64,000 nt of DNA from Heptranchias perlo. Its lineage: Eukaryota. This document shows, in pieces, positions 9,204 through 52,775 of the stretch. The position numbers and the translations under genes were made by a program. Location of the stretch: the NCBI RefSeq assembly GCF_035084215.1, contig NC_090355.1, forward strand, positions 15,934,001 through 15,998,000, read 5' to 3'. Under the pieces are notes generated by a model. It did no database searches. It saw only the letters and a program-made list of their open reading frames with translations, and was not told the origin of the DNA. Numbering within the stretch: the stretch's first letter is position 1; every line of letters starts with the position of its first letter.

Positions 9204-9765
9204 GAGCCCTGCAAATACACCTACACCCACTCTGCAGTGACACAATGGGTGTCATCAGTTGTGGGTCTTCATGGTGATCCTCAGGAAAGGGCATTATTGC
9301 ACAAACCAGACAAGATTTTCAAAGACATGGCAGTAGTGGTGCCAATATAATATGTGATGTGAGTTGGTCAGAAATGAAATACAAGTAAAAACCATGACAA
9401 ACCCTCAAACACCCTTGTGCATCCCCTTCATGCTCATGACATGTTTGCCTTATGCTTCCGACTGCACATATGTGATGCATGCCCTGTGGCTGCAGCACAG
9501 GTAGTGGCAGGTTGAGTGAGGCTGACCATGAAAGAGATGTATGAGAGGGTGAGTATGAGATAGAGCTATGAGATTGTATGAGGATTGGGTTGAGTGGTAG
9601 TGGTGGGATGAGTACTGGCGAGGTGAATAAGTGCAGGTAAGATGAGGATGAGGTTTGAGTGGGTATGAGGAGTGATGTGATAGAGTAGTGTTGGCAGTGC
9701 AGAAGGAGATGTGGGATGGGGGCGGTGATGTGGCAGACGGAGTGCAGGGGAATAAGTGTACTCAA

Positions 9766-10011
9766 TTCGGCTGACCGACTTAGGTTATTGAAGCGCCTCC
9801 TGCACTGTATGCAGGTGCGTGATACGTTGGTGGTGGCAGAGGAGGTCACCTGCACCTCGAGCCAGGCCTCCGTGGTGGCAGAGGCAGGCCACTTCCTCCC
9901 GTCCGCCAGGGAGAAGATCTCTGTCCTCCCCCTCCTCCTCACCCCATCCAATAAGACCTGGAGAGAGGCATCATTAAACCTGGGAGCAGCATTCCCCCTG
10001 GGCTGCTCCAT
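9766..10011 (-). pseudogene. Harbinger Myb/SANT-like (NAIF1/MYPOP-type) accessory protein, first exon remnant
   Basis: MEQPRGNAAPRFNDASLQVLLDGVRRR...EAWLEVQVTS...RTCIQCRRRFNNLSRSA is the typical trihelix/Myb motif. The presumed donor is degraded to TTGAGT. Confidence 0.8.
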
Positions 10012-11441
10012 GCTGTAACTTTGCATATATTCTGCAGCATCAGTCAGTGGAGGACTGTCCCTTTAAATAGGGCTCCTCCAGCTGACAGCCTATGCTGCGG
10101 CTGCGCAGTCCGCCGGCTGAGCGGCTTTCGAGCTCGAAACCCGGAAGCCAAGTTAAGTACCTTCAATTAAGCTGCGATTGCGTGCGGAGCACCCCAAATT
10201 CACTGGGCACGTTACCCACGTGCCCAGTCGACCCCCGCTGCCAGCCCGCCTCCCTCCTAATATCGGGCCCATAGTGTCTGTTCAACAATATAACTTTGAG
10301 AACTTCTAACGCTTCATTGGCTTTATTCATTTTATTTTGCTCAGTTGATATAATCCTATTTTATGCAGATTTAAATTGCCACAGGTCTCCTGTAAGAAAA
10401 TAGAAAATTTAACTCGAAAAATTTTTTTTTTTCACTGAACGGATTTTTTTTCCAGTTTCTTCTGTTCAAGATTATACAAGAGCTACTGTCTGTCTTAAAG
10501 CAAAAGCAGCAATCAGCACTAAGTAAAATGGGAGATGTTAGCTGGCAATCAGCCGTGGTTGGATAAAAATAGGGTGACTTCAGCTAATTTTTGAGCCAGT
10601 TATTGACTTCTGAATCTAAGGAAATTAGTGTTTCCAACTGTATGGTTTACAGTAATGTTAATGTTAATGTCATAGGACGATGGTCACTTTAATCAGAAAA
10701 TGATTGCAATAACAACTTCTAAAATCTAAAGTTTCTGAGCAGTTGACATCAGTGATTGTATAAATTACAGTCACATAAATAAGTAAAGGACCAGAAAAGA
10801 CTGCAATCCATCTCGCTAGTCCCAAAAATCACATTCACTCAATAATAATTACATAGAAATTGTGCACATGGAGAAGTGAGGTACAAAGAATCTTTGTTGA
10901 TTTCACTTGGAATTTCATCTTTGGGGCATTATTAGGTGTTCCTCATGAATGATCTAAATTTTATATTCAATGGCTCCCCCATTTATTAATATGTTCATGC
11001 ATGTTTTAATATCACAAATGAGAAGTTGTATAAATTTTGCAAATAATTAAATGTGTGACTTTGCTTTATCACCATACAATTTGTACACAAATATAAACTG
11101 GCTATATCCAAGGCAGTCCATTGACAACTCTTGACTCCAATGATAATGTAGTTAGGACAAGGTTAGGGATCATCTGATGTAGATTTAATCTCTGCCTGTG
11201 GAACAGCTACCATGTAGCTGTATAGATATTGTATCCAACATTCTGTAATGAATATCACTCTCAAAGTGGAACCTGGCGTCCAATGGGTTAAATATATGAA
11301 TTCTTCCAGCTTTGAGAAAAAGTATATAAAGAATACCCATTTTTAACAGAGAGTCAATGTTACAAAAACTGGAAAGGATTGACTGGCATGTTTTGTTGAC
11401 CTTGTATCAGCGTGTATTGTTATTTCAAATGAAGGACTTAC

Positions 11442-15800: not shown

Positions 15801-16081
15801 CAAAACTTCTGCTTATCTCTAAAATATTCAACACGGTATTTTATTCCATTATTAGTGCACTTAGGACCAACATAAATATTAGTAGGAACATCTGAAGTTC
15901 AGTACAGGCAAAACTGAATTTAGAAATAGCATCTTGTGACAGGCGGACAGGACAAAAAAACTTTTTTTTAAAGTGTTTGGTTCCGGATGTTGGCACTTTA
16001 AATTAAGGAGTTTAATCTGGTTTTTTTGTTTTATTTTCCCCATCAAAGTTGTCTCTGTGGAACAGAACGGGTCGCACTTAC

Positions 16082-16492
16082 GTGGAGGTGACTGGAACCG
16101 GCGGACGGAGCTTCGCTGAAGCTTTCGGTGCCCAGAGTGCCACTGTTGGGCAGCAGGTCGGTTTTCAGATAGAGTCCCTCGGAGGTGTATTGATCGAAGA
16201 GCAGCTGGTCCGACCTGGGGATGACGAGCCTCAACATGGGCAGCAGTTGCCTCTTGTTCTGGCTGTTGAGGATAACTTTCAGAGTCTGCACCAGGTCGAA
16301 GACGTTCCTCTTGGAGTGATAGACGTTCAGGCAGTGGATGAACTGCTCCCTCTCGTAGTCGTTTAATAAAACATTAAGAGCGTTGTGCAGCTTCCTCACG
16401 TTGGACGATAAGGATCGCCCGCTGGATCCAACGCCCGAAACCATAGAGTTAGCCGAGGAGTTGAGGGACATCCGTTCGAGATCGGTGGACAT
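16082..16492 (-). CDS. WHRN: Whirlin coding exon 1 (N-terminus and harmonin-homology domain HHD1), 137 codons
   Basis: MSTDLERMSL...NVRKLHNALNVLLNDYEREQFIHCLNVYHSKRNVFDLVQTLKVILNSQNKRQLLPMLRLVIPRSDQLLFDQYTSEGLYL matches the whirlin N-terminal domain. ATG is in an ACCATG context at 16492. Donor CAC|GTAAGT at 16081, phase 0. Lies in a CpG-rich region. Confidence 0.95.
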
Positions 16493-16990
16493 GGTGAGAA
16501 ACGCCGGGGGTGGGGGGGGGGGGGAAATAAAAGTATCAACAGCAGATGTGCAGTTTCCCCAGTTTGCAGAATCTCCCCGGACCGGGACGGATTGCACTGC
16601 AGATGGGATCAGGGGCAGTGAGCAGCGCAGTCCCCGGGCTCCGCTGAAGTCTCTACTCCTGCCTCCGTCTGCATTTCGCCGACGAGTTGCCCTCCCCGGG
16701 GACTGGCTGCGTGTGGCATTGATCGCCCAGTTGAGCTCCGGCTGCCGGCCCGCCTCCCTCCACTTTCACGGCTTCTCTCCCGCGCGCTCAGCTGCACTTG
16801 TCAATTTCATCGTTGCTTGTCATTCCGCGCGGAAATGACGCAGCCCGACGTTGTTGCCAGGAGACGGCGGCTACATCCAGGACGCGTCGGCCGGGCACGT
16901 GCGGGATGGGGCAGTGGGGTCTGCACCCGTGCAGACCCTGAAATGGGTTCAGGTGCTCAGGGAGCAGCTTTGTTCCCGGTGAAGAACCTG
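16493..16990 (-). promoter_or_regulatory. CpG-island promoter / 5'UTR of WHRN
   Basis: GC- and CpG-rich stretch immediately upstream of the ATG in an otherwise CpG-poor window. Contains an X-box-like motif (16853-16865), the palindrome TTCCGCGCGGAA (16823-16834) and a CRE-like TGACGC. Confidence 0.75.
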
Positions 16991-17109
16991 CCCCACCCAC
17001 TTCTACATCGCTGATAACTGTTAAAAGTCATAAACTTCCATTCAAAATTCAGTGTGAGTGCAATTCAGCAACTTTAATCCACCTTCTTTTCTTCTGTTTG
17101 TCAAGCATG

Positions 17110-17692
17110 GAACAGCTATACAAAACCCTGGTTAGACCGCACCTGGGGTACTGTGAGCAGTTCTGGGCACCGCACCTTCGGAAGGACATATTGGCCTTGG
17201 AGGGAGTGCAGCGTAGGTTTACTAGAATGATACCCGGACTTCAAGGGTTAAGTTACGAGGAGAGATTACACAAATTGGGGTTGCATTCTCTGGAGTTTAG
17301 AAGGTTAAGGGGTGATCTGATCGAAGTTTGTAAGATATTAAGGGGAACAGATAGGCTGGATAGAGAGAAACTATTTCCGCTGGTTGGGGATTTTAGGAGC
17401 AGGGGGCACAGTCGAAAAATTGGAGCCAGACCTTTCAGGAGCGAGATTAGAAAACTTTTCTACACACAAAGGGTTGTAGAAGTTTGGAACTCTCTTCCGC
17501 AAACGGCAATTGATACTAGCTCAATTGCTAAATTTAAATCTGAGATAGATAGCTTTTTGGCAACCAAAGGTATTAAGGGATATGGGCCAAAGGCAGGTAT
17601 ATGGAGTTCGATCACAGATCAGCCATGATCTTATAAAATGGCGGAGCAGGCACGAGGGGTTGAATGGCCTGCTCCTGTTCCTATGTTCCTAT
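17110..17692 (+). mobile_element. CR1 LINE 3' fragment (relatively young, open frame)
   Basis: LYKTLVRPHLGYCEQFWAPHLRKDILALEGVQRRFTRMIPGL...RRLRGDLIEV; ends in cctatgttcctat. Confidence 0.92.
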
Positions 17693-19279: not shown

Positions 19280-21497
19280 GGGGAGATTTTCCACTTCACC
19301 ATTCCTGGTGCATGCTGTGAGTGTACATTGGGAAACCATGCTCCATCAGCCCGTGATTTTCTGTTTATTACGGATGCAAAAATCACAGGTTTGGGTGCAC
19401 AATTTTTGTAAAATGCATACCCAGCACATAAACAGCCCTGAAACAGAAAATCTCCTTTCAGGAGCTGACTCACAGGGCAAGATTTTAGCATGGAGACGGG
19501 AACTCAGCAGGTGGATAAATAATCGCATGGGAAACCTGGAAGTGACTTGAACGCATTGGATTGAGCGATCGCAACTCAATTGAAGGCACTTAATGTTAGC
19601 TCTGGGTTTTGCGCAGCGGGCATACTGAGCACTCGCATAACGTGATTTAAAGCCCAATATTTAAGGGGCCAATGCAAAAATGGATTTTGAAGGAGAAAGG
19701 AGTAAAAAGCGAAATGGAAGGACATAGGGGAAATTCAACACCCAGGTTCTCAGACTCTTCCCTTGAGATACTACTGGCTGCTGTGAGAAGCAGGAGGGAG
19801 GTGATATACCCAGGTGATAGGAGGACGAAACCTGGTTCTGCCATCAGGAAGGCATGGCTGGAGGTGGCAGAACAGGTCAGCAGCAGGAGCACAGTGCCCA
19901 TGTCTTGGCTGCAGTGGAGGAAGCGATTTAATGACCTAACCAGGTCAGGAAAAGTGAGTACAGTTGCTGATTCACCCACATCCAGTGAAATGCAACACCG
20001 CCCCCCACTCCCCACCACTGTGTTAGCACGCCATCACGTAACTTCTCACATCCACTTAAGTTTCAGCATCAACCGCCCTTCACTTTGTATGCACTTCCTC
20101 ACCTCCCCATTTATTCACCCACCACTGCCACTCACCCCAATCCTGATGCAATGTGCTGTATCTGTCTGATAGTCACCCTCTGATGCATCTGTTTCATTGT
20201 CAGCCTCACCCAAAGCAATACGTCCATCAGGTGAATAAGTCACCTTCAGTCACTCACGGGTCTGATCTTTCTTCACTTGAGGGGAAGAGAGTGCAAAATG
20301 CAAAGGAGAGGATGAGAACTGGAGGTGGTCGACCGCATATAGTGGAGTTGATAGATGTGGAGGAGGAGGCCGTAGAAATAAGTGGGACAGTTGCATGCCT
20401 ATCCATCGGAGATGGAGAGACTGGCAACCCGCAGATGGCTGGTGACAGAATTTTAACATCTTTCACACACATGATGAATTGATTTTATCAACCTCAGTAT
20501 GGTCATTCGAAAGATTGTCACTTTTCCGATGAATAATTCATATCGCTTTCTGTTGTCTTCCGGGGCCTTCACGATTTCAAGAATAATCAGGGGAAATGGA
20601 AGACAATGATTCCTCAGAGGACTTCATTCCTTCTGAGGGTGCACCGTCACAGGACATACATCCATGCACCAGCGCAGATACTCGCACTTCAGTGGGTCCT
20701 GTTAGACAGATAGTTGGGTTGTCACCTGGTGATTCACCACTCACAAGTATGCACGAGCAGGCACTGGTGGCAGGGGCAGCTGTGGAGAGTCCGCATCGGG
20801 GGGCGCACTCCTCTCCAAGCTCTGCTCAGCTGGGCACAGATGCTGAACCCTGGAGGGCATCGTTGAAAAGGAGAATGATAGAGGTGCAGCAGCAACTTTG
20901 CGAGGTAATGGAAAAAGTGTCACACACACTCTCCACAATACCAGAAATGATGGAGGTGTCCAGCTCCATCACCAGTGGATTGTTGTCACAGGTAAATGCG
21001 AGATTATCTGCAATGGAGAGAGTGGCAGCCTCCAATGAGCTTCAAGCATAGATCTCAAATGAGTCTACGGAGGCCATGACAACGGCTGAGCAAACTTTGG
21101 ATGCCAACCTGTCTGCCGCCTTAAACAGGATGACAGATCCGTGGCCTTACACGCGACACATCTGTTCACCAACCTGTTATCCAGCAGAGTGGTGGGAGTG
21201 ATGTGGCACTGGCCCGGGAGAGGGATGATGGAGAAAGGGGACACCACTCCCACATCTCACACATTGCCCCCCACCCCCCCCCCCCCAACCAATATGCAAT
21301 GCTGCCTCCTCTCCTGATGGCCAAGTCTTCCCCTGCACAGCTGCAGGTGGAGCAGTCTTTGGCCGGGCCCTCAAGGGCTCCAAAATCCAGATGTCGTAGG
21401 TCGAGAGCATCTCAGCAGTCAGGGAAGTTATCTATCTGATCAACCTTCTGCTATCTCTGCTGAAGCCACAGGGGATGCAACACATAGAAACGCTAGA
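19280..21497 (+). mobile_element. Truncated PIF/Harbinger element carrying a three-exon Myb/SANT-like pseudogene
   Basis: TIR-like GGGGAGATTTTCC at 19280. Exon 19714-19953 encodes PRFSDSSLEILLAAVRSRREVIYP...KAWLEVAEQVSSRS...QWRKRFNDLTRSGK followed by GTGAGT. Exon 20282-20441 encodes GKRVQNAKERMRTGGG... The third exon has a mutated acceptor and stop codons. The element ends abruptly at the 21498 insertion. Confidence 0.85.
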
Positions 21498-21655
21498 AAG
21501 CTTTCGGAGGCTTCCTCCTTCCTCACATTTACCTGAGGAAGGAGGAAGCCTCCGAAAGCTTGTAGATTTCAAATAAAAATCGTTGGACTATAACTTGGTG
21601 TTGTAAAATTGTTTACAATTGTCAACCCCAGTCCATCACCGGCATCTCCACATCA
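21498..21655 (+). mobile_element. Short Penelope-like fold-back insertion, family A
   Basis: Perfect 28-bp inverted repeat (21498-21525 / 21534-21561), a hammerhead motif, AATAAA, and the terminal ...ccagtccatcaccggcatctccacatca shared with the 47416 copy. Confidence 0.75.
21527..21567 (+). ncRNA. Minimal type I hammerhead ribozyme motif
   Basis: Stem I ATTTAC/GTAGAT; core CTGAGGA plus an extra A; stem II GGAGG-aag-CCTCC; GAAA; palindromic stem III AGCT; predicted cleavage after CUU at 21561. Confidence 0.65.
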
Positions 21656-22062
21656 GTGTCAGTATGAAAGCAGCTGTGGTGATGTTGAATCGTTCCTGCA
21701 TTTACAATTATACTTTCACTCATAATAAATCATAGCTTTAGTAATTCCTTCAGGGAGACCTCTTCTTTTTAAAAGAGCACTGTTACCAGGGACGAACAGT
21801 CGCATGTCATTTCCATTACAATGAAATTACACATATCTGATTCACTGCTGTTTTCATGACGCAAAACACTCTTTGATGTTATTTATGTCAGCATGTTGTG
21901 TAAATGGCAAACAAATGAAAAAAAGGTTCGACAAACACCTTTGGATGACAATGGTGCTGATCTAAATGGAGAAACGACATTGAAAATTGTTCCGATTTTT
22001 TAAAACAGATTTGCACGATGACATTCACTGTTAACAGCAAAGGAAGTAAGACTACAATGAGT

Positions 22063-22205
22063 CAAAAGCAAAATACTGAGGAGGCTGGAATTCTGAAATA
22101 AAACCAGAAAATGCTGGAAATACTCAGCAGGTCAGGCAGCATCTGTGGAAAAAGAAACAGAGTTAACATTTCAGGTCAATGGCCTTTCGTCAGAACTGGA
22201 AGATG
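22063..22205 (-). mobile_element. Short Penelope-like insertion, family B, with a degenerate hammerhead motif (22161-22197)
   Basis: Minus strand reads AGTT-CTGACGA-A-AGGCC-att-GACCT-GAAA-TGTT-AACT. Flanked by the near-direct repeats ctacaatgagt / ctacatgagt. Confidence 0.65.
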
Positions 22206-28029: not shown

Positions 28030-28560
28030 TTATCCTCTTCTTTATTGTCTATGTACTTTAGTATGCCTTTTTCTTTAGTTTGAACTTTACCCTTATCTCT
28101 TTATTCATCCATGGTGTTTCATTATCGGCTAGTTTGTTCTTGCTTTTTAGAGGAATATATTTCTCCTTCATTCCATTGATCACCATTTTGAATATTATCC
28201 ACTGCTGTTCTATTTCTTTGTCTGTCAACATTTTTTTCCACTTTACCTGCCCTAGTTCTACTTTGATCCCCTCAAAATTAGCTTTTTTCCAATCTATTAC
28301 TTTGATCTTTGTCTTACTTATGTCTTTCTCAATCATTATTTTAAACCTTATTATATTATGATCACTATTGCCCAGATGTTCCCCTAAGCTTACGTCTCTT
28401 AACTGTTCTGGTTCATTTCCCATTACTCGATCCAGCAGTGATTTGTTTCTTGTTGGGCTTCTCACATACTGGGTAAGAAAGGAGTCATGTACACACTGTA
28501 AAAACTCCATTCCCTTCTTTCCTTTCCCTGCCTCTTCTTGCCAGTTTATTTGGGGGGTTA
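28030..28560 (-). mobile_element. CR1 LINE internal ORF2 fragment (endonuclease C-terminus and linker)
   Basis: FLTQYVRSPTR...LDRVM...HLGNSDHNIIRF...DWKKANF...TPWMNKEIR. Confidence 0.85.
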
Positions 28561-29019
28561 AATTTTACAGATTCATAATCCGTGTCTAAAACAAAATGAA
28601 GAAAGTTAATTATCGATCTTTAAGGTTAATTGGCTTTCTTGCCCAATCACACTCCTTTTATTATGTGCCAAAAAGGCTAGAATCCAAAGACACAAACTTA
28701 GCATGGTACCAGTATTACATTGACAAGGGAACTGAAAGGTATTGTTTGAGAAAAGAACAGGGAAACATAAAACAATTGGAGACTTGAAGTGGCATAACTA
28801 AGCGGTTCAGACACTCTCATCAACCCTGAGAATGAACCCACAGAAGTCGTTGTGCTCAACAACAGCAAACCTCTCCTGGGATTTAATTTGTTGTTAGCTC
28901 ACTGGTTGTGCATTGAGTGTTTCCTCCCTTTATTTAATGCACTTGTGAAAATGCACAGGAGTTACTCATTGTGCAATCTTGGTTCTAGGTTGTGTTACAA
29001 TTAAATGTATAACTGAGCA

Positions 29020-35043: not shown

Positions 35044-36678
35044 AATCATGGAATCATAGAAAGGTTACAGCAAGGAAGGAGGCCATTCAGCCCATTGGGT
35101 CCATGCCGGCTCGATGCAAAAGCAATCCAGCTAGTCCCACTATGCTGCCCTATCCCCGTAGCCCTGAAAATTTTTTACTTTCAAGTGCTTATCCAGTTCC
35201 CTTTTGAAGGCCATGATTGAATCTGCCTCCACCACCCCCTCGGGCAGTGCATTCCAGATCCTAACCACTTGCTGTGTAAAAAGTTTTTTCTCATGTCACC
35301 TTTTGTTCTTTTGCCAATCACCTTAAATCTATGTCCTCTGGTTCTTGACCCGTCCACTAATAAGAACAGTTTCTCTCTTTCTACTCTGTCGAGACCCTTC
35401 ATGATTTTGAATACCTCCATCAAATCGCCTGGCAACCTTCTCTGTTCCAAGGAGAACAACCCCAGCTTCTCCAGTCTATCCACGTAATTAAAGTCCCTCA
35501 TCCCTGGAATCATTCCAGTAAGTCTCTTCTGCACCCTCTCTAAGGCCTTCACATCTTTCCCAAAGTGCAGTGCCCAGAATTGGACACGATACTCCAGTTG
35601 TGGCCGAACTGGTGCTTTATAAAGGTTCATCATGACTTCCATACTTTTGTACTCTACGCCTCTATTTATAAAGCTCAGGATCCAGTATGCTTTTTTAACC
35701 GCTTTCTCAACCTGCCCTGCCACCTTTGACAATTTGTGCACACATACCCCCAGATCTCTCTGTTCCTGTATCCCTTTTAGAGTTGTGCCCTCGAGTTTAT
35801 ATTGCCTCTCCTCGTTCTTCCTACCAAAATGTATCACTCTGCATTAAATTTCATCTGCCACGTGTCCACCCATGCCACCAGCCTGTCTATATCCTGTTGA
35901 AGTCTATCACTATCCTCCTCACTGTTTACTACCTTCCAAGTTTTGTGTCATCTGCAAATTTGGAAATTGTGCCCTGTACACCCAAGTCCAAGTTATTAAT
36001 ATATATCAAGAAAAGCAGTGGTCCCAGCACTGACCCCTGGGGAACACCACTGTACACTCCCCCCAGTCCAAAAAACAACTGTTCACCACTACTCGCTGTT
36101 TCCTGTCACTTAGCCAATTCTGTATCCATGTTGCTACTGCCCCCTTTATTCCATGGGCTGCAACTTGATGATAAGCCGACCATGCGGCACTTTATCAAAC
36201 GCCTTTTGAAAGTCCATATAACCACATCAACTACATTGCCCTCATCTACCCTTTCAGTTACCTCATCAAAAAACTCTATCAGGTTAGTTAAACACGATTT
36301 ACCTTTAACAAATCTGTACTGGTTTTCCCTGATCAATCCACACTCATCCAAGTGACTGTTAATTCTGTCCCAGATTATCATTTCAAAAAGTTTCCCACCA
36401 CTGAGGTTAAACTAACTGGCCTATAGTTGCTGGGTTTATCCTGACACCCTTTTTTGAACAAGGGTGTAAAATTTGCAATTCTCCAGTCCTCTGGCACCAC
36501 CCTTGTATCTACGGATGTTTGGAAGATTATGACCAGTACCTCCGCAATTTCCACCCTTACTTCCCTCAGCAACCTAGGATGCATCCCATCCGGACCGGGT
36601 GATTTATCTACTTTAAGTACAGCTAGTCTTTATTTATTTTTAGCCCATCCAATATCTCAACTATATCTTCCTTTACTG
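35044..36678 (-). mobile_element. CR1 LINE fragment (frameshifted RT domain to 3' end)
   Basis: HPRLLRE..VPEDWRIAN..PLFKKG..NYRPVSLTSVVG; GKSCLTNLIEFFDEVT; VRPQLEYRVQFW...RRLPGDLMEVFKIMKG. Confidence 0.93.
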
Positions 36679-46998: not shown

Positions 46999-47415
46999 TA
47001 ACCGATTTTATGCTATTCCTCAGCTCAATACAAATGAATTCTATTTGGACGACACCTCTATTTAAATCCTTATGCTCGAGGGCTACAATATAGTGTCTAA
47101 TAATATCTCCCATTCTTCCTTCCCTCCTGAAAGTTTTATACCCAGAAATATTTAATTGAAAATCTGCAATCACGCTTCAGTTACTGCTGGAACGTCATGA
47201 TTTTACATTTCAATCAGCAACTCTATTCCCCCAATTTTGTTTCTTACAGATTGTGCATAAATATGCACATATGTTAGTTTGGATTGCCTTAGTTTGTTAA
47301 TTTCTCCTTTTTTCACCTCCCTCCACTCTTTTCTTCCTGCTTAATCTCTTTTTCAGCCTTTCTACTTCTTTATTCCCTGTATTCCTAAAACTTACTTTCC
47401 CTTCTGACTTCTCTC

Positions 47416-47572
47416 TGATGTGGAGATGCCGGTGATGGACTGGGGTTGACAATTGTAAACAATTTTACAACACCAAGTTATAGTCCAGCAATTTTATTTT
47501 AAATTCACAAGCTTGTGAATTTAAAATAAAATTGCTGGACTATAACTTGGTGTTGTAAAATTGTTTACAACA
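47416..47572 (-). mobile_element. Short Penelope-like fold-back insertion, family A, containing a perfect 118-bp palindrome
   Basis: Reverse complement of the 21556-21655 tail plus an inverted partial copy. Palindrome 47453-47570 is centred on AAGCTT. Target-site duplication GACTTCTCTC at 47406-47415 and 47573-47582. Confidence 0.8.
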
Positions 47573-52394: not shown

Positions 52395-52544
52395 TCTGTA
52401 ACCAGATGTGACTGGTTCTGCATTGCATGCCATTCCTGTCACCAAGTCCTGTTCCTGGATTGTCAATGGTCTGTAACCAGATGTGACTGGTTCTGCATTG
52501 CATGCCATTCCTGTCACCAAGTCCTGTTCCTGGATTGTCAATGG
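52395..52544. repeat. Perfect tandem duplication, 2 x 75 bp, in ATP6V1G1 intron 2
   Basis: 52395-52469 is identical to 52470-52544. Confidence 0.95.
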
Positions 52545-52775
52545 TATCATGGTAGTTATTCAACATGATCCAATGAGTCTTCGAGCACCTCCTATTGTCA
52601 AAGAATTTCCAGCTTTCTTAATGTTTTTCAGAGTTCAAACCTGTACTCTGTTACCGATGAATATTTAATGAATGGTATTGCTACTTGAATGTTGTTTACA
52701 ACTCTGGGGAAAGGGGTTAAATAAGGGTACTTATGGAATTGAAGACACACTTGACGTTTTTACTTTCTTTTTCAG

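What the first reader, a model, noticed from the sequence alone, without database searches (positions are those of the whole stretch)
21498..21655. Tiny fold-back retro-insertion with an intact-looking hammerhead ribozyme; the inverted arm stops at the predicted cleavage site
Seen: a 158-bp insert containing ATTTAC-CTGAGGA-A-GGAGG(aag)CCTCC-GAAAGCTT-GTAGAT. This gives stem I (6 bp, one G-U), a CUGANGA core, stem II, GAAA and a self-complementary AGCU stem III. Just upstream is a perfect 28-bp inverted copy (21498-21525) whose end corresponds to ...GAAAGCTT, the predicted NUH (CUU) cleavage position. Established: Penelope-like elements carry minimal, dimer-dependent hammerheads in their pseudo-LTRs and often insert with inverted partial pLTRs. 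Inference: this is a non-coding, ribozyme-processed, retrozyme-like family whose junctions record the self-cleaved RNA end.
Basis: partly seen in the sequence, partly recalled or inferred. Interest (0 to 1): 0.72.

Follow-up and report, generated by a model that had tools for sequence, protein, structure and literature searches.

The report
Clipped fold-back Penelope retrotransposon end
This is a short mirror-image scrap of a very common, protein-coding Penelope-type jumping gene that carries an already described self-cutting RNA motif; its short arm ends at the predicted cut site likely because three letters there are shared with the neighbouring DNA, so it is ordinary and does not show that the RNA was cut.

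Summary
The hammerhead motif and the perfect 28-bp inverted arm are real, and stems I and II covary across subfamilies. But the insert is not a non-coding retrozyme. It is the 3' end (pseudo-LTR plus tail) of an autonomous Penelope-like element: 98.5% identical to the end of a copy with an RT + GIY-YIG frame. Close relatives sit in 3.08-kb tandems with an intact 902-aa frame. The core has 18,162 exact copies. The arm's end does not record cleavage. Its last three letters (AAG) also belong to the host Harbinger transposon in 3 of 3 paralogs, so the break can lie at any of four positions. The family's usual 12-13-bp target duplication is missing, and at least 0.9 kb of host is lost. Genome-wide, arm ends at the cut are no commoner than at neighbouring positions (22 vs 15 and 13 hits); 136 of 145 arms end at the two usual sites. 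A weak excess of 5' joints at the cut is not excluded. The scan noted similar shark copies before.

The parts
21498..21525 (-). Inverted, 5'-truncated arm: copy of element positions -28 to -1 relative to the predicted cut; lacks C3 and the 5' strand of stem I, so it is not itself a complete hammerhead
21498..21500 (.). AAG shared by the host Harbinger repeat and the arm (3-nt microhomology; imperfect extension: host CTAGAAAG, element CTACAAG); no target-site duplication
21525..21655 (+). Direct arm: 3' end of a Penelope-like element (end of pseudo-LTR plus tail), 98.5% identical over 130 nt to the 3' end of L154, which carries a 705-aa RT+endonuclease frame; one letter (A 21525) is shared with the inverted arm
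21527..21567 (+). Minimal type I hammerhead; predicted cut between 21561 and 21562 (CUU); palindromic AGCU in place of stem III
   Evidence: numbering from established hammerhead consensus
21619..21655 (+). Optional tail (about 37 nt) after the pseudo-LTR end TTTACAA; the copy stops at +94, the commonest end in the family; in tandem units the ORF's ATG lies at +93
19651..21500 (+). Host: remnant of a PIF/Harbinger-type transposon (Myb/SANT frame 19651-20169); paralogs continue past 21500, one into a DDE_Tnp_4 transposase on the opposite strand, and this part is missing here
21656..22020 (.). Right flank, single-copy DNA unrelated to the host repeat; a contig of a public DNA run covers 21632-22102 without differences

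Best explanation
The insert is a 5'-truncated, fold-back copy of the 3' end of an autonomous Penelope-like retrotransposon (likely Neptune clade), likely made by target-primed reverse transcription of uncut element RNA, and its short arm likely ends where it does through a three-letter microhomology join that removed the target duplication and part of the host transposon. Steps: (1) shown: the direct arm starts at the tail end (+94), one of the two end sites used by 136 of 145 arms, and runs unbroken across the predicted cut to about -36. (2) inferred from PMC11167929: these two end sites are reverse-transcription start sites, so the template was uncut or re-joined RNA. (3) shown: a second arm lies head-to-head, the usual Penelope layout. 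(4) shown: the left joint shares AAG with the host, has no duplication and lacks at least 0.9 kb of host. Inferred: the join arose either at insertion (target end annealing inside the element) or by later deletion. (5) predicted: a transcript of this copy folds as a hairpin that hides the ribozyme core, so this copy is likely not an active ribozyme. The family's hammerhead is likely under selection in tandem master copies, where it would cut as a dimer.
For: 18,162 exact copies of the 31-nt core, control 0, and 33,532 further variants, control 9. RT (PF00078, E 3e-10), DKGG, YIDD, C-x4-C-x2-C linker and VVY...C...C...YIG in a 902-aa frame; GIY-YIG PF01541 at E 4.8e-4 in 1 of 2 copies, below the cut-off. 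Tandem units of 3081 and 3086 bp. Arm ends: 65 at +53..+66, 71 at +90..+101, 1 into the ORF, 8 scattered, 0 at the cut, n = 145. Target duplications of 8 bp or more in 30 of 41 insertions, mode 12-13; 2 bp here. Host AAG in 3 of 3 independent paralogs; two paralogs stay alike for 0.9 and 1.9 kb past the joint. 3' ends at the cut: 22 hits, 5 duplication-flanked; at -4: 15 hits, 3; at +2: 13 hits, 2 with a stricter filter (scaled 11.9, 7.1, 10.7). Stem covariation: 18 cells changed on both sides against 8.4 shuffled, 0/500. Inverted 5'-truncated copies, tails and a microhomology joint without duplication are described for Penelope elements (PMC8557442, PMC3846280, passages).
Against: The furthest possible break does coincide with the predicted cut. 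Five duplication-flanked copies elsewhere also end there, one of them (L082) without shared letters. I could not see the empty site, so insertion-time and later deletion are not told apart; the left joint was not among the listed contig pieces. The controls cover only two positions for 3' ends and three for 5' joints. The 145-arm sample is biased for the 30 loci, whose pattern runs past the cut. The Neptune label rests on the linker motif, not on a tree. The covariation control does not correct for relatedness.
Confidence: 0.85

Rival explanations
1. The short arm was primed on the 3' end of the self-cleaved 5' fragment (ending ...GAAAGCUU), so this joint records ribozyme cleavage in vivo.
For: The longest reading of the arm ends at the predicted cut. 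5 of 22 pattern hits are duplication-flanked short arms ending there. The motif covaries and so is likely functional in the family.
Against: AAG is also host sequence. There is no duplication and host DNA is lost. Neighbouring positions give similar counts (5 vs 3, p = 0.73; 22 vs 15, p = 0.32). 4 of those 5 copies share 1-3 letters with their target. Short arms also end at +13, +16, +40 and +43, three of them with 2 letters shared with the target. In the anole element, ribozyme mutants insert normally and no RNA reads end at the cut (PMC11167929).
Confidence: 0.07
2. The insert belongs to a separate non-coding, ribozyme-processed retrozyme family that spreads through small circular or tandem RNAs.
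For: The insert has no frame, and many relatives are short: median span 217 bp in 41 measured insertions, a sample weighted to fold-back look-alikes. Animal retrozymes are reported to derive from Penelope pLTRs and to occur in one sampled chondrichthyan (bioRxiv 10.64898/2026.07.22.740005, passages).
Against: Short copies have variable 5' ends and the same 3' ends as coding copies. The insert is 98.5% identical to the end of a coding copy. The same-strand arrays read here are 3.08-kb coding units. A monomer defined by two cuts would not give copies that cross the cut once.
Confidence: 0.04
3. The element inserted normally with a full left arm and duplication, and the left part is an assembly or haplotype-switch artefact at a hairpin.
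For: Perfect hairpins inside repeats are hard to assemble (PMC8557442, passage). No listed contig spans the left joint.
Against: The right joint is matched by a contig from a public DNA run. The left joint has the microhomology typical of a biological join. Clipped arms of many lengths occur elsewhere in the genome.
Confidence: 0.04

Closest known systems
Endonuclease-bearing Penelope-like elements, Neptune/Nematis type (Craig et al. 2021, PMC8557442; passages read)
   Same: [quoted passage not shown]
   Different: A shark family with tens of thousands of mostly very short copies; not placed on a tree here. This copy has lost its duplication and part of one arm.
[quoted passage not shown]
   Same: Type I; no helix III but a palindrome at 15.1-16.1; extra base between 9 and 10.1; G10.1-C11.1; covarying families; pairs of motifs on opposite strands 100-700 bp apart; most copies solo.
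   Different: Stem II is 5 bp with a 3-nt loop; the triplet is CUU (U17 is a slow triplet by my recall, not from a call). Sharks are not named in the parts read.
Anole Poseidon element PAc (Frangieh et al. 2024, PMC11167929; parts 1-2 of 4 read)
   Same: Two 3' end sites bounding the tail; inserts made from uncut RNA.
   Different: In PAc the ORF starts inside the ribozyme; here the ATG is 93 nt after the cut. PAc's clade lacks the linker zinc finger.
Adineta vaga Pen2 insertion with microhomology joint and no duplication (Arkhipova et al. 2013, PMC3846280; passages read)
   Same: Penelope copy inserted into another transposon, joined by microhomology without a target duplication; inverted pLTRs.
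   Different: There the microhomology is at the 5' junction; here it is at the outer end of the inverted arm.
Animal non-LTR retrozymes (bioRxiv 10.64898/2026.07.22.740005; part 1 of 5 and passages read)
   Same: Type I hammerhead, non-coding sequence, related to Penelope pLTRs.
   Different: Defined as short tandem repeats with a hammerhead in each unit; this insert is a single head-to-head truncation of a coding element.

Membership tests
EN+ Penelope-like element | Single frame with reverse transcriptase | tested here: met
   PF00078 E 3e-10 to 8e-10 in 3 of 3 copies scanned; DKGG and YIDD motifs
EN+ Penelope-like element | C-terminal GIY-YIG endonuclease with CCHH motif | tested here: met
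   VVYLIRCRKGC...WYIGET at residue 790 with downstream histidines; PF01541 E 4.8e-4, 20.8 bits (cut-off 22.6) in 1 of 2 copies; many homologs carry PF01541
EN+ Penelope-like element | Tandem or partial-tandem units forming pseudo-LTRs, inverted 5'-truncated copies, optional 30-40-bp tail | tested here: met
   3081/3086-bp tandems; two end classes about 37 nt apart in 136 of 145 arms; 19 head-to-head pairs among the first 100 hits (counted by eye)
EN+ Penelope-like element | Target-site duplication | tested here: inconclusive
   Family: 30 of 41 have 8 bp or more, mode 12-13; this copy: none
Neptune clade | CX2-5CxxC linker between RT and endonuclease | tested here: met
   CHGNLCKTC at residue 753; feature from PMC8557442, shared with Nematis
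Neptune clade | RT phylogeny groups with Neptune | not tested
   No named reference sequences were at hand; no tree built
Minimal type I hammerhead | Core CUGANGA ... GAAA ... UH with stems I and II and palindromic stem III | tested here: met
   position 7 varies (G, C, T) while the pairs hold; positions fixed by my search patterns say nothing about conservation
Minimal type I hammerhead | Covariation in stems | tested here: met
   5 of 10 pairs change on both sides in 29 distinct rows; 18 cells vs 8.4 shuffled (0/500) and 0-5 in slid controls; the outer pair of stem I and inner pair of stem II are often unpaired (15 and 9 of 29)
Minimal type I hammerhead | Self-cleavage (as a dimer) | not testable with these tools
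   No assay; only contigs, no raw RNA reads; in this copy the core is predicted to be hidden in the hairpin
Non-LTR retrozyme | Short non-coding head-to-tail repeats with a hammerhead in each unit | tested here: not met
   Single head-to-head insert; the same-strand arrays read here are 3.08-kb coding units; short arrays elsewhere in the genome were not searched for
Non-LTR retrozyme | Circular monomer RNA | not testable with these tools
   No RNA holder on record

The most novel reading that the evidence does not exclude
Not this copy, but a small share of the family's copies (a few tens among tens of thousands) begin exactly at the first base after the predicted cut with a blunt joint. These would be cDNAs that ran off the 5' end of a self-cleaved RNA: a genomic footprint of Penelope hammerhead cleavage in living shark cells, which the anole study did not detect. 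Here 5' joints number 100 at +1 against 32, 87 and 78 at -3, -2 and +2 (about 1.6 times the two nearest controls after rough scaling), and blunt ones scale to about 24 against 7, 4 and 6.
Probability: 0.2. Interest if true: 0.5.

Novelty: new member of a known kind. Interest (0 to 1): 0.17.

Why it matters
As it stands it matters little: it adds a young, abundant shark family to a described class, and shows that a single junction at a ribozyme cut site can be a microhomology coincidence. The family could be a useful test system. It has intact tandem masters and tens of thousands of ends, so a full end profile could settle whether Penelope hammerheads cut the RNA that is reverse-transcribed, which PMC4209133 left open and PMC11167929 answered negatively for one element in vitro.

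Tried and rejected
Rfam: no hammerhead family at E <= 10; only sub-threshold microRNA-type hairpin hits, rejected as any long hairpin scores so. DNA search of the genome with the 131-nt arm returned nothing because common words are skipped; a pattern search was used instead. The right flank was not found within about 10 kb (L157) and 9 kb (L158) next to two host paralogs, so the size of the lost DNA is only a lower bound. Sequencing runs: no RNA holder listed. Contigs of four DNA runs did not show an empty allele or the left joint among the listed pieces. Contigs of three guessed-RNA runs lay along the whole element but cannot show ends or expression. A 5'-joint profile from the first 100 of 1,588 hits (tallied by eye) gave 10 at +1, with 14, 13, 9 and 8 at other positions (p = 0.07 for +1 against a flat profile, uncorrected), so no sharp peak. 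19 of the 100 joints at +1 are GTGA(A) microhomologies with the element's own reverse strand (by eye). The blunt share at +1 (12 of 50) equals that at -3 (7 of 31), so the blunt excess over -2 and +2 may reflect the first base; Fisher p = 0.03 against the pooled controls, post hoc. A first version of that classifier used some wrongly oriented references and was replaced. One script printed nothing because its anchor came from another subfamily (redone). Lunse et al. on dimer cleavage is not held; I saw only its title. A search for 'Penelope', 'shark' and 'Neptune' together gave one unrelated paper; I found no paper on this family, but subscription journals and Repbase/Dfam were not searched. 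Supplements were not read.

Full report
Observation. Arms 21498-21525 and 21534-21561 are 28 nt and fully complementary; the hairpin folds at -56.3 kcal/mol, z = -10.2. The + strand carries a minimal type I hammerhead at 21527-21567 with the predicted cut between 21561 and 21562, triplet CUU (numbering from the established consensus). Rfam does not detect it, and the motif alone folds no better than shuffles.

What family it belongs to. The window lies in a 3.25-Gb genome. The 31-nt core has 18,162 exact copies, backwards control 0. A looser pattern that excludes this stem II finds 33,532 more, control 9. Upstream of long copies lies a frame with RT (PF00078). The direct arm of the insert is 98.5% identical over 130 nt to the 3' end of L154, which carries a 705-aa frame and is about 95% identical to tandem units of 3081 and 3086 bp with intact frames. 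The full protein is 902 aa with DKGG, YIDD, a C-x4-C-x2-C linker and a VVY...C...C...YIG endonuclease; Pfam's GIY-YIG model hits one of two copies just under its cut-off. The closest named proteins are from sharks (80-96% identity). By the features in PMC8557442 (passages) this is an endonuclease-bearing Penelope-like element, likely Neptune (linker motif; no tree built). So the insert is the end of a coding element, not a member of a separate non-coding family.

Is the hammerhead real? Among 231 distinct arms in the loci then held, stem II occurs as GGAGG/CCUCC, GGAGA/UCUCC, GGAGC/GCUCC and GGGGA/CCCCC, and stem I as UUUAC/GUAGA, UUCAC/GUGAA and UUUGC/GUGAA. I aligned 30 hand-picked variant rows (29 distinct). 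There, 5 of 10 pairs change on both sides: 18 cells against 8.4 in shuffles (0/500) and 0-5 in slid controls. Two edge pairs are often broken, and the control ignores relatedness. This matches the minimal, dimer-dependent hammerheads described for Penelope pLTRs (PMC4209133, parts 1-2 of 4; review passages PMC6765202). Activity is untested. In this copy the inverted arm is predicted to capture the core: -72.7 kcal/mol against -33.1 with the hammerhead enforced, and stem II pairing falls from 0.74 to about 0.

The joint at the 'cut site'. The insert sits in a Harbinger-type repeat: a Myb/SANT frame at 19651-20169 and, in a paralog, a DDE_Tnp_4 transposase beyond the joint. Three independent paralogs read ...TAG(A/G)AAG exactly where the arm begins, so AAG at 21498-21500 belongs to both and the break can be at any of four positions. 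Two paralogs stay alike for 0.9 and 1.9 kb past this point, but the window's right flank is single-copy DNA, so host DNA was lost. Relatives have target duplications of 8 bp or more in 30 of 41 measured insertions (mode 12-13; 4 more ran off their loci); this copy has none. A Penelope insertion joined by microhomology without duplication is described in PMC3846280 (passages).

Do 3' ends favour the cut? In 145 distinct arms, 65 end at +53..+66, 71 at +90..+101, 1 runs into the ORF, 8 are scattered and none ends at the cut (the window's own locus left out; the 30 loci were found with a pattern that runs past the cut). These two classes match the pLTR end and the tail end, which PMC11167929 identifies as the two reverse-transcription start sites of the anole element (parts 1-2 of 4). 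That paper also reports that ribozyme mutants insert normally. Whole-genome pattern counts of copies that break off: 22 at the cut, 15 at -4 with the same filter, 13 at +2 with a stricter one. Reading the flanks, duplication-flanked short arms number 5 of 22 (all read), 3 of 15 (9 read, 6 judged from the listing) and 2 of 13 (6 read, 7 from the listing). Scaled for filter capture these are 11.9, 7.1 and 10.7. So such ends exist but are rare (at most about 0.3% against the 18,162) and are not enriched at the cut. Four of the five share 1-3 letters with their target.

Do 5' joints favour the cut? A cut RNA would more naturally leave copies that begin at +1. Counts for the commonest downstream sequence: 100 at +1, 32 at -3, 87 at -2, 78 at +2; roughly scaled 156, 44, 98, 101. 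+1 differs from -3 (p = 2e-9) but not from -2 or +2 (p = 0.38, 0.12). After earlier notes of the scan pointed to a footprint, I classified 50 of the 100, 31 of the 32, 41 of the 87 and 41 of the 78 joints: blunt in 12, 7, 2 and 3. Scaled, that is about 24 against 7, 4 and 6. The blunt share at +1 equals that at -3, the test is post hoc, and -1 and +3 have no whole-genome count. A weak footprint is therefore neither shown nor excluded, and it would not concern this copy.

How it likely arose. Shown: the direct arm runs from the tail end (+94) across the cut to about -36; a short arm lies head-to-head; the outer joint has microhomology, no duplication and lost host DNA. Inferred: the element's endonuclease opened the target, reverse transcription began at the tail end on uncut RNA and stopped early, and the other target end was joined inside the element through AAG, either during insertion or by a later deletion across the hairpin. 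Predicted: the copy is inert.

Verdict. A new member of a known kind; interest low. The one open lead is the weak 5' excess at +1.

Noticed in passing
window 47415-47570: A second fold-back copy of the same family, centred on the AAGCTT palindrome, so both arms begin 6 letters before the predicted cut; it has an 11-bp target duplication. It keeps the letters upstream of the cut, so its template was not cut there.
   Followed up: partly
L203 (G000:C1:4460000-4468000), L204, L205: Tandem 3.08-kb units with intact, nearly identical 902-aa frames; two units in L203 encode the same protein letter for letter, which suggests very recent activity.
   Followed up: partly
L071, L077, L081, L083, L161, L164, L166, L014, L050, L067: Duplication-flanked insertions whose short arm starts inside the pLTR, mostly with 1-3 letters shared with the target: likely a minor route in which the second target end primes internally.
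   Followed up: partly
L052, L072, L075, L078, L159, L165: Copies with repeated template jumps around stem II of the ribozyme, giving two to four partial motifs in a row.
   Followed up: no
L095, L097, L121, L297: Four separate loci share the same inner joint, with one arm starting at +1 and the other at -2.
   Followed up: partly
window 16043-16765 (-): Frame with a harmonin N-terminal-like domain (PDB harmonin E 2e-5, PF21219 E 2e-4), likely a host gene exon; whirlin is my recalled guess, not from a call.
   Followed up: partly
window 9319-10062 (-): Frame that resembles the Myb/SANT frame of the host Harbinger (80% DNA identity over 125 nt); no Pfam hit.
   Followed up: partly
window 16942-17628, 28058-28564, 35181-35843: Fragments that look like CR1-type LINE frames (label recalled; only a weak PF14529 hit for 28058-28564).
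   Followed up: no
window 22060-22205: Very high-copy short repeat shared with other organisms' runs, likely a SINE or LINE end.
   Followed up: no
window 52395-52545: Exact 76-bp tandem duplication.
   Followed up: no
P0016: A shark gene model named epn2 includes a piece 96% identical to this element's protein: exonised element or annotation error.
   Followed up: no
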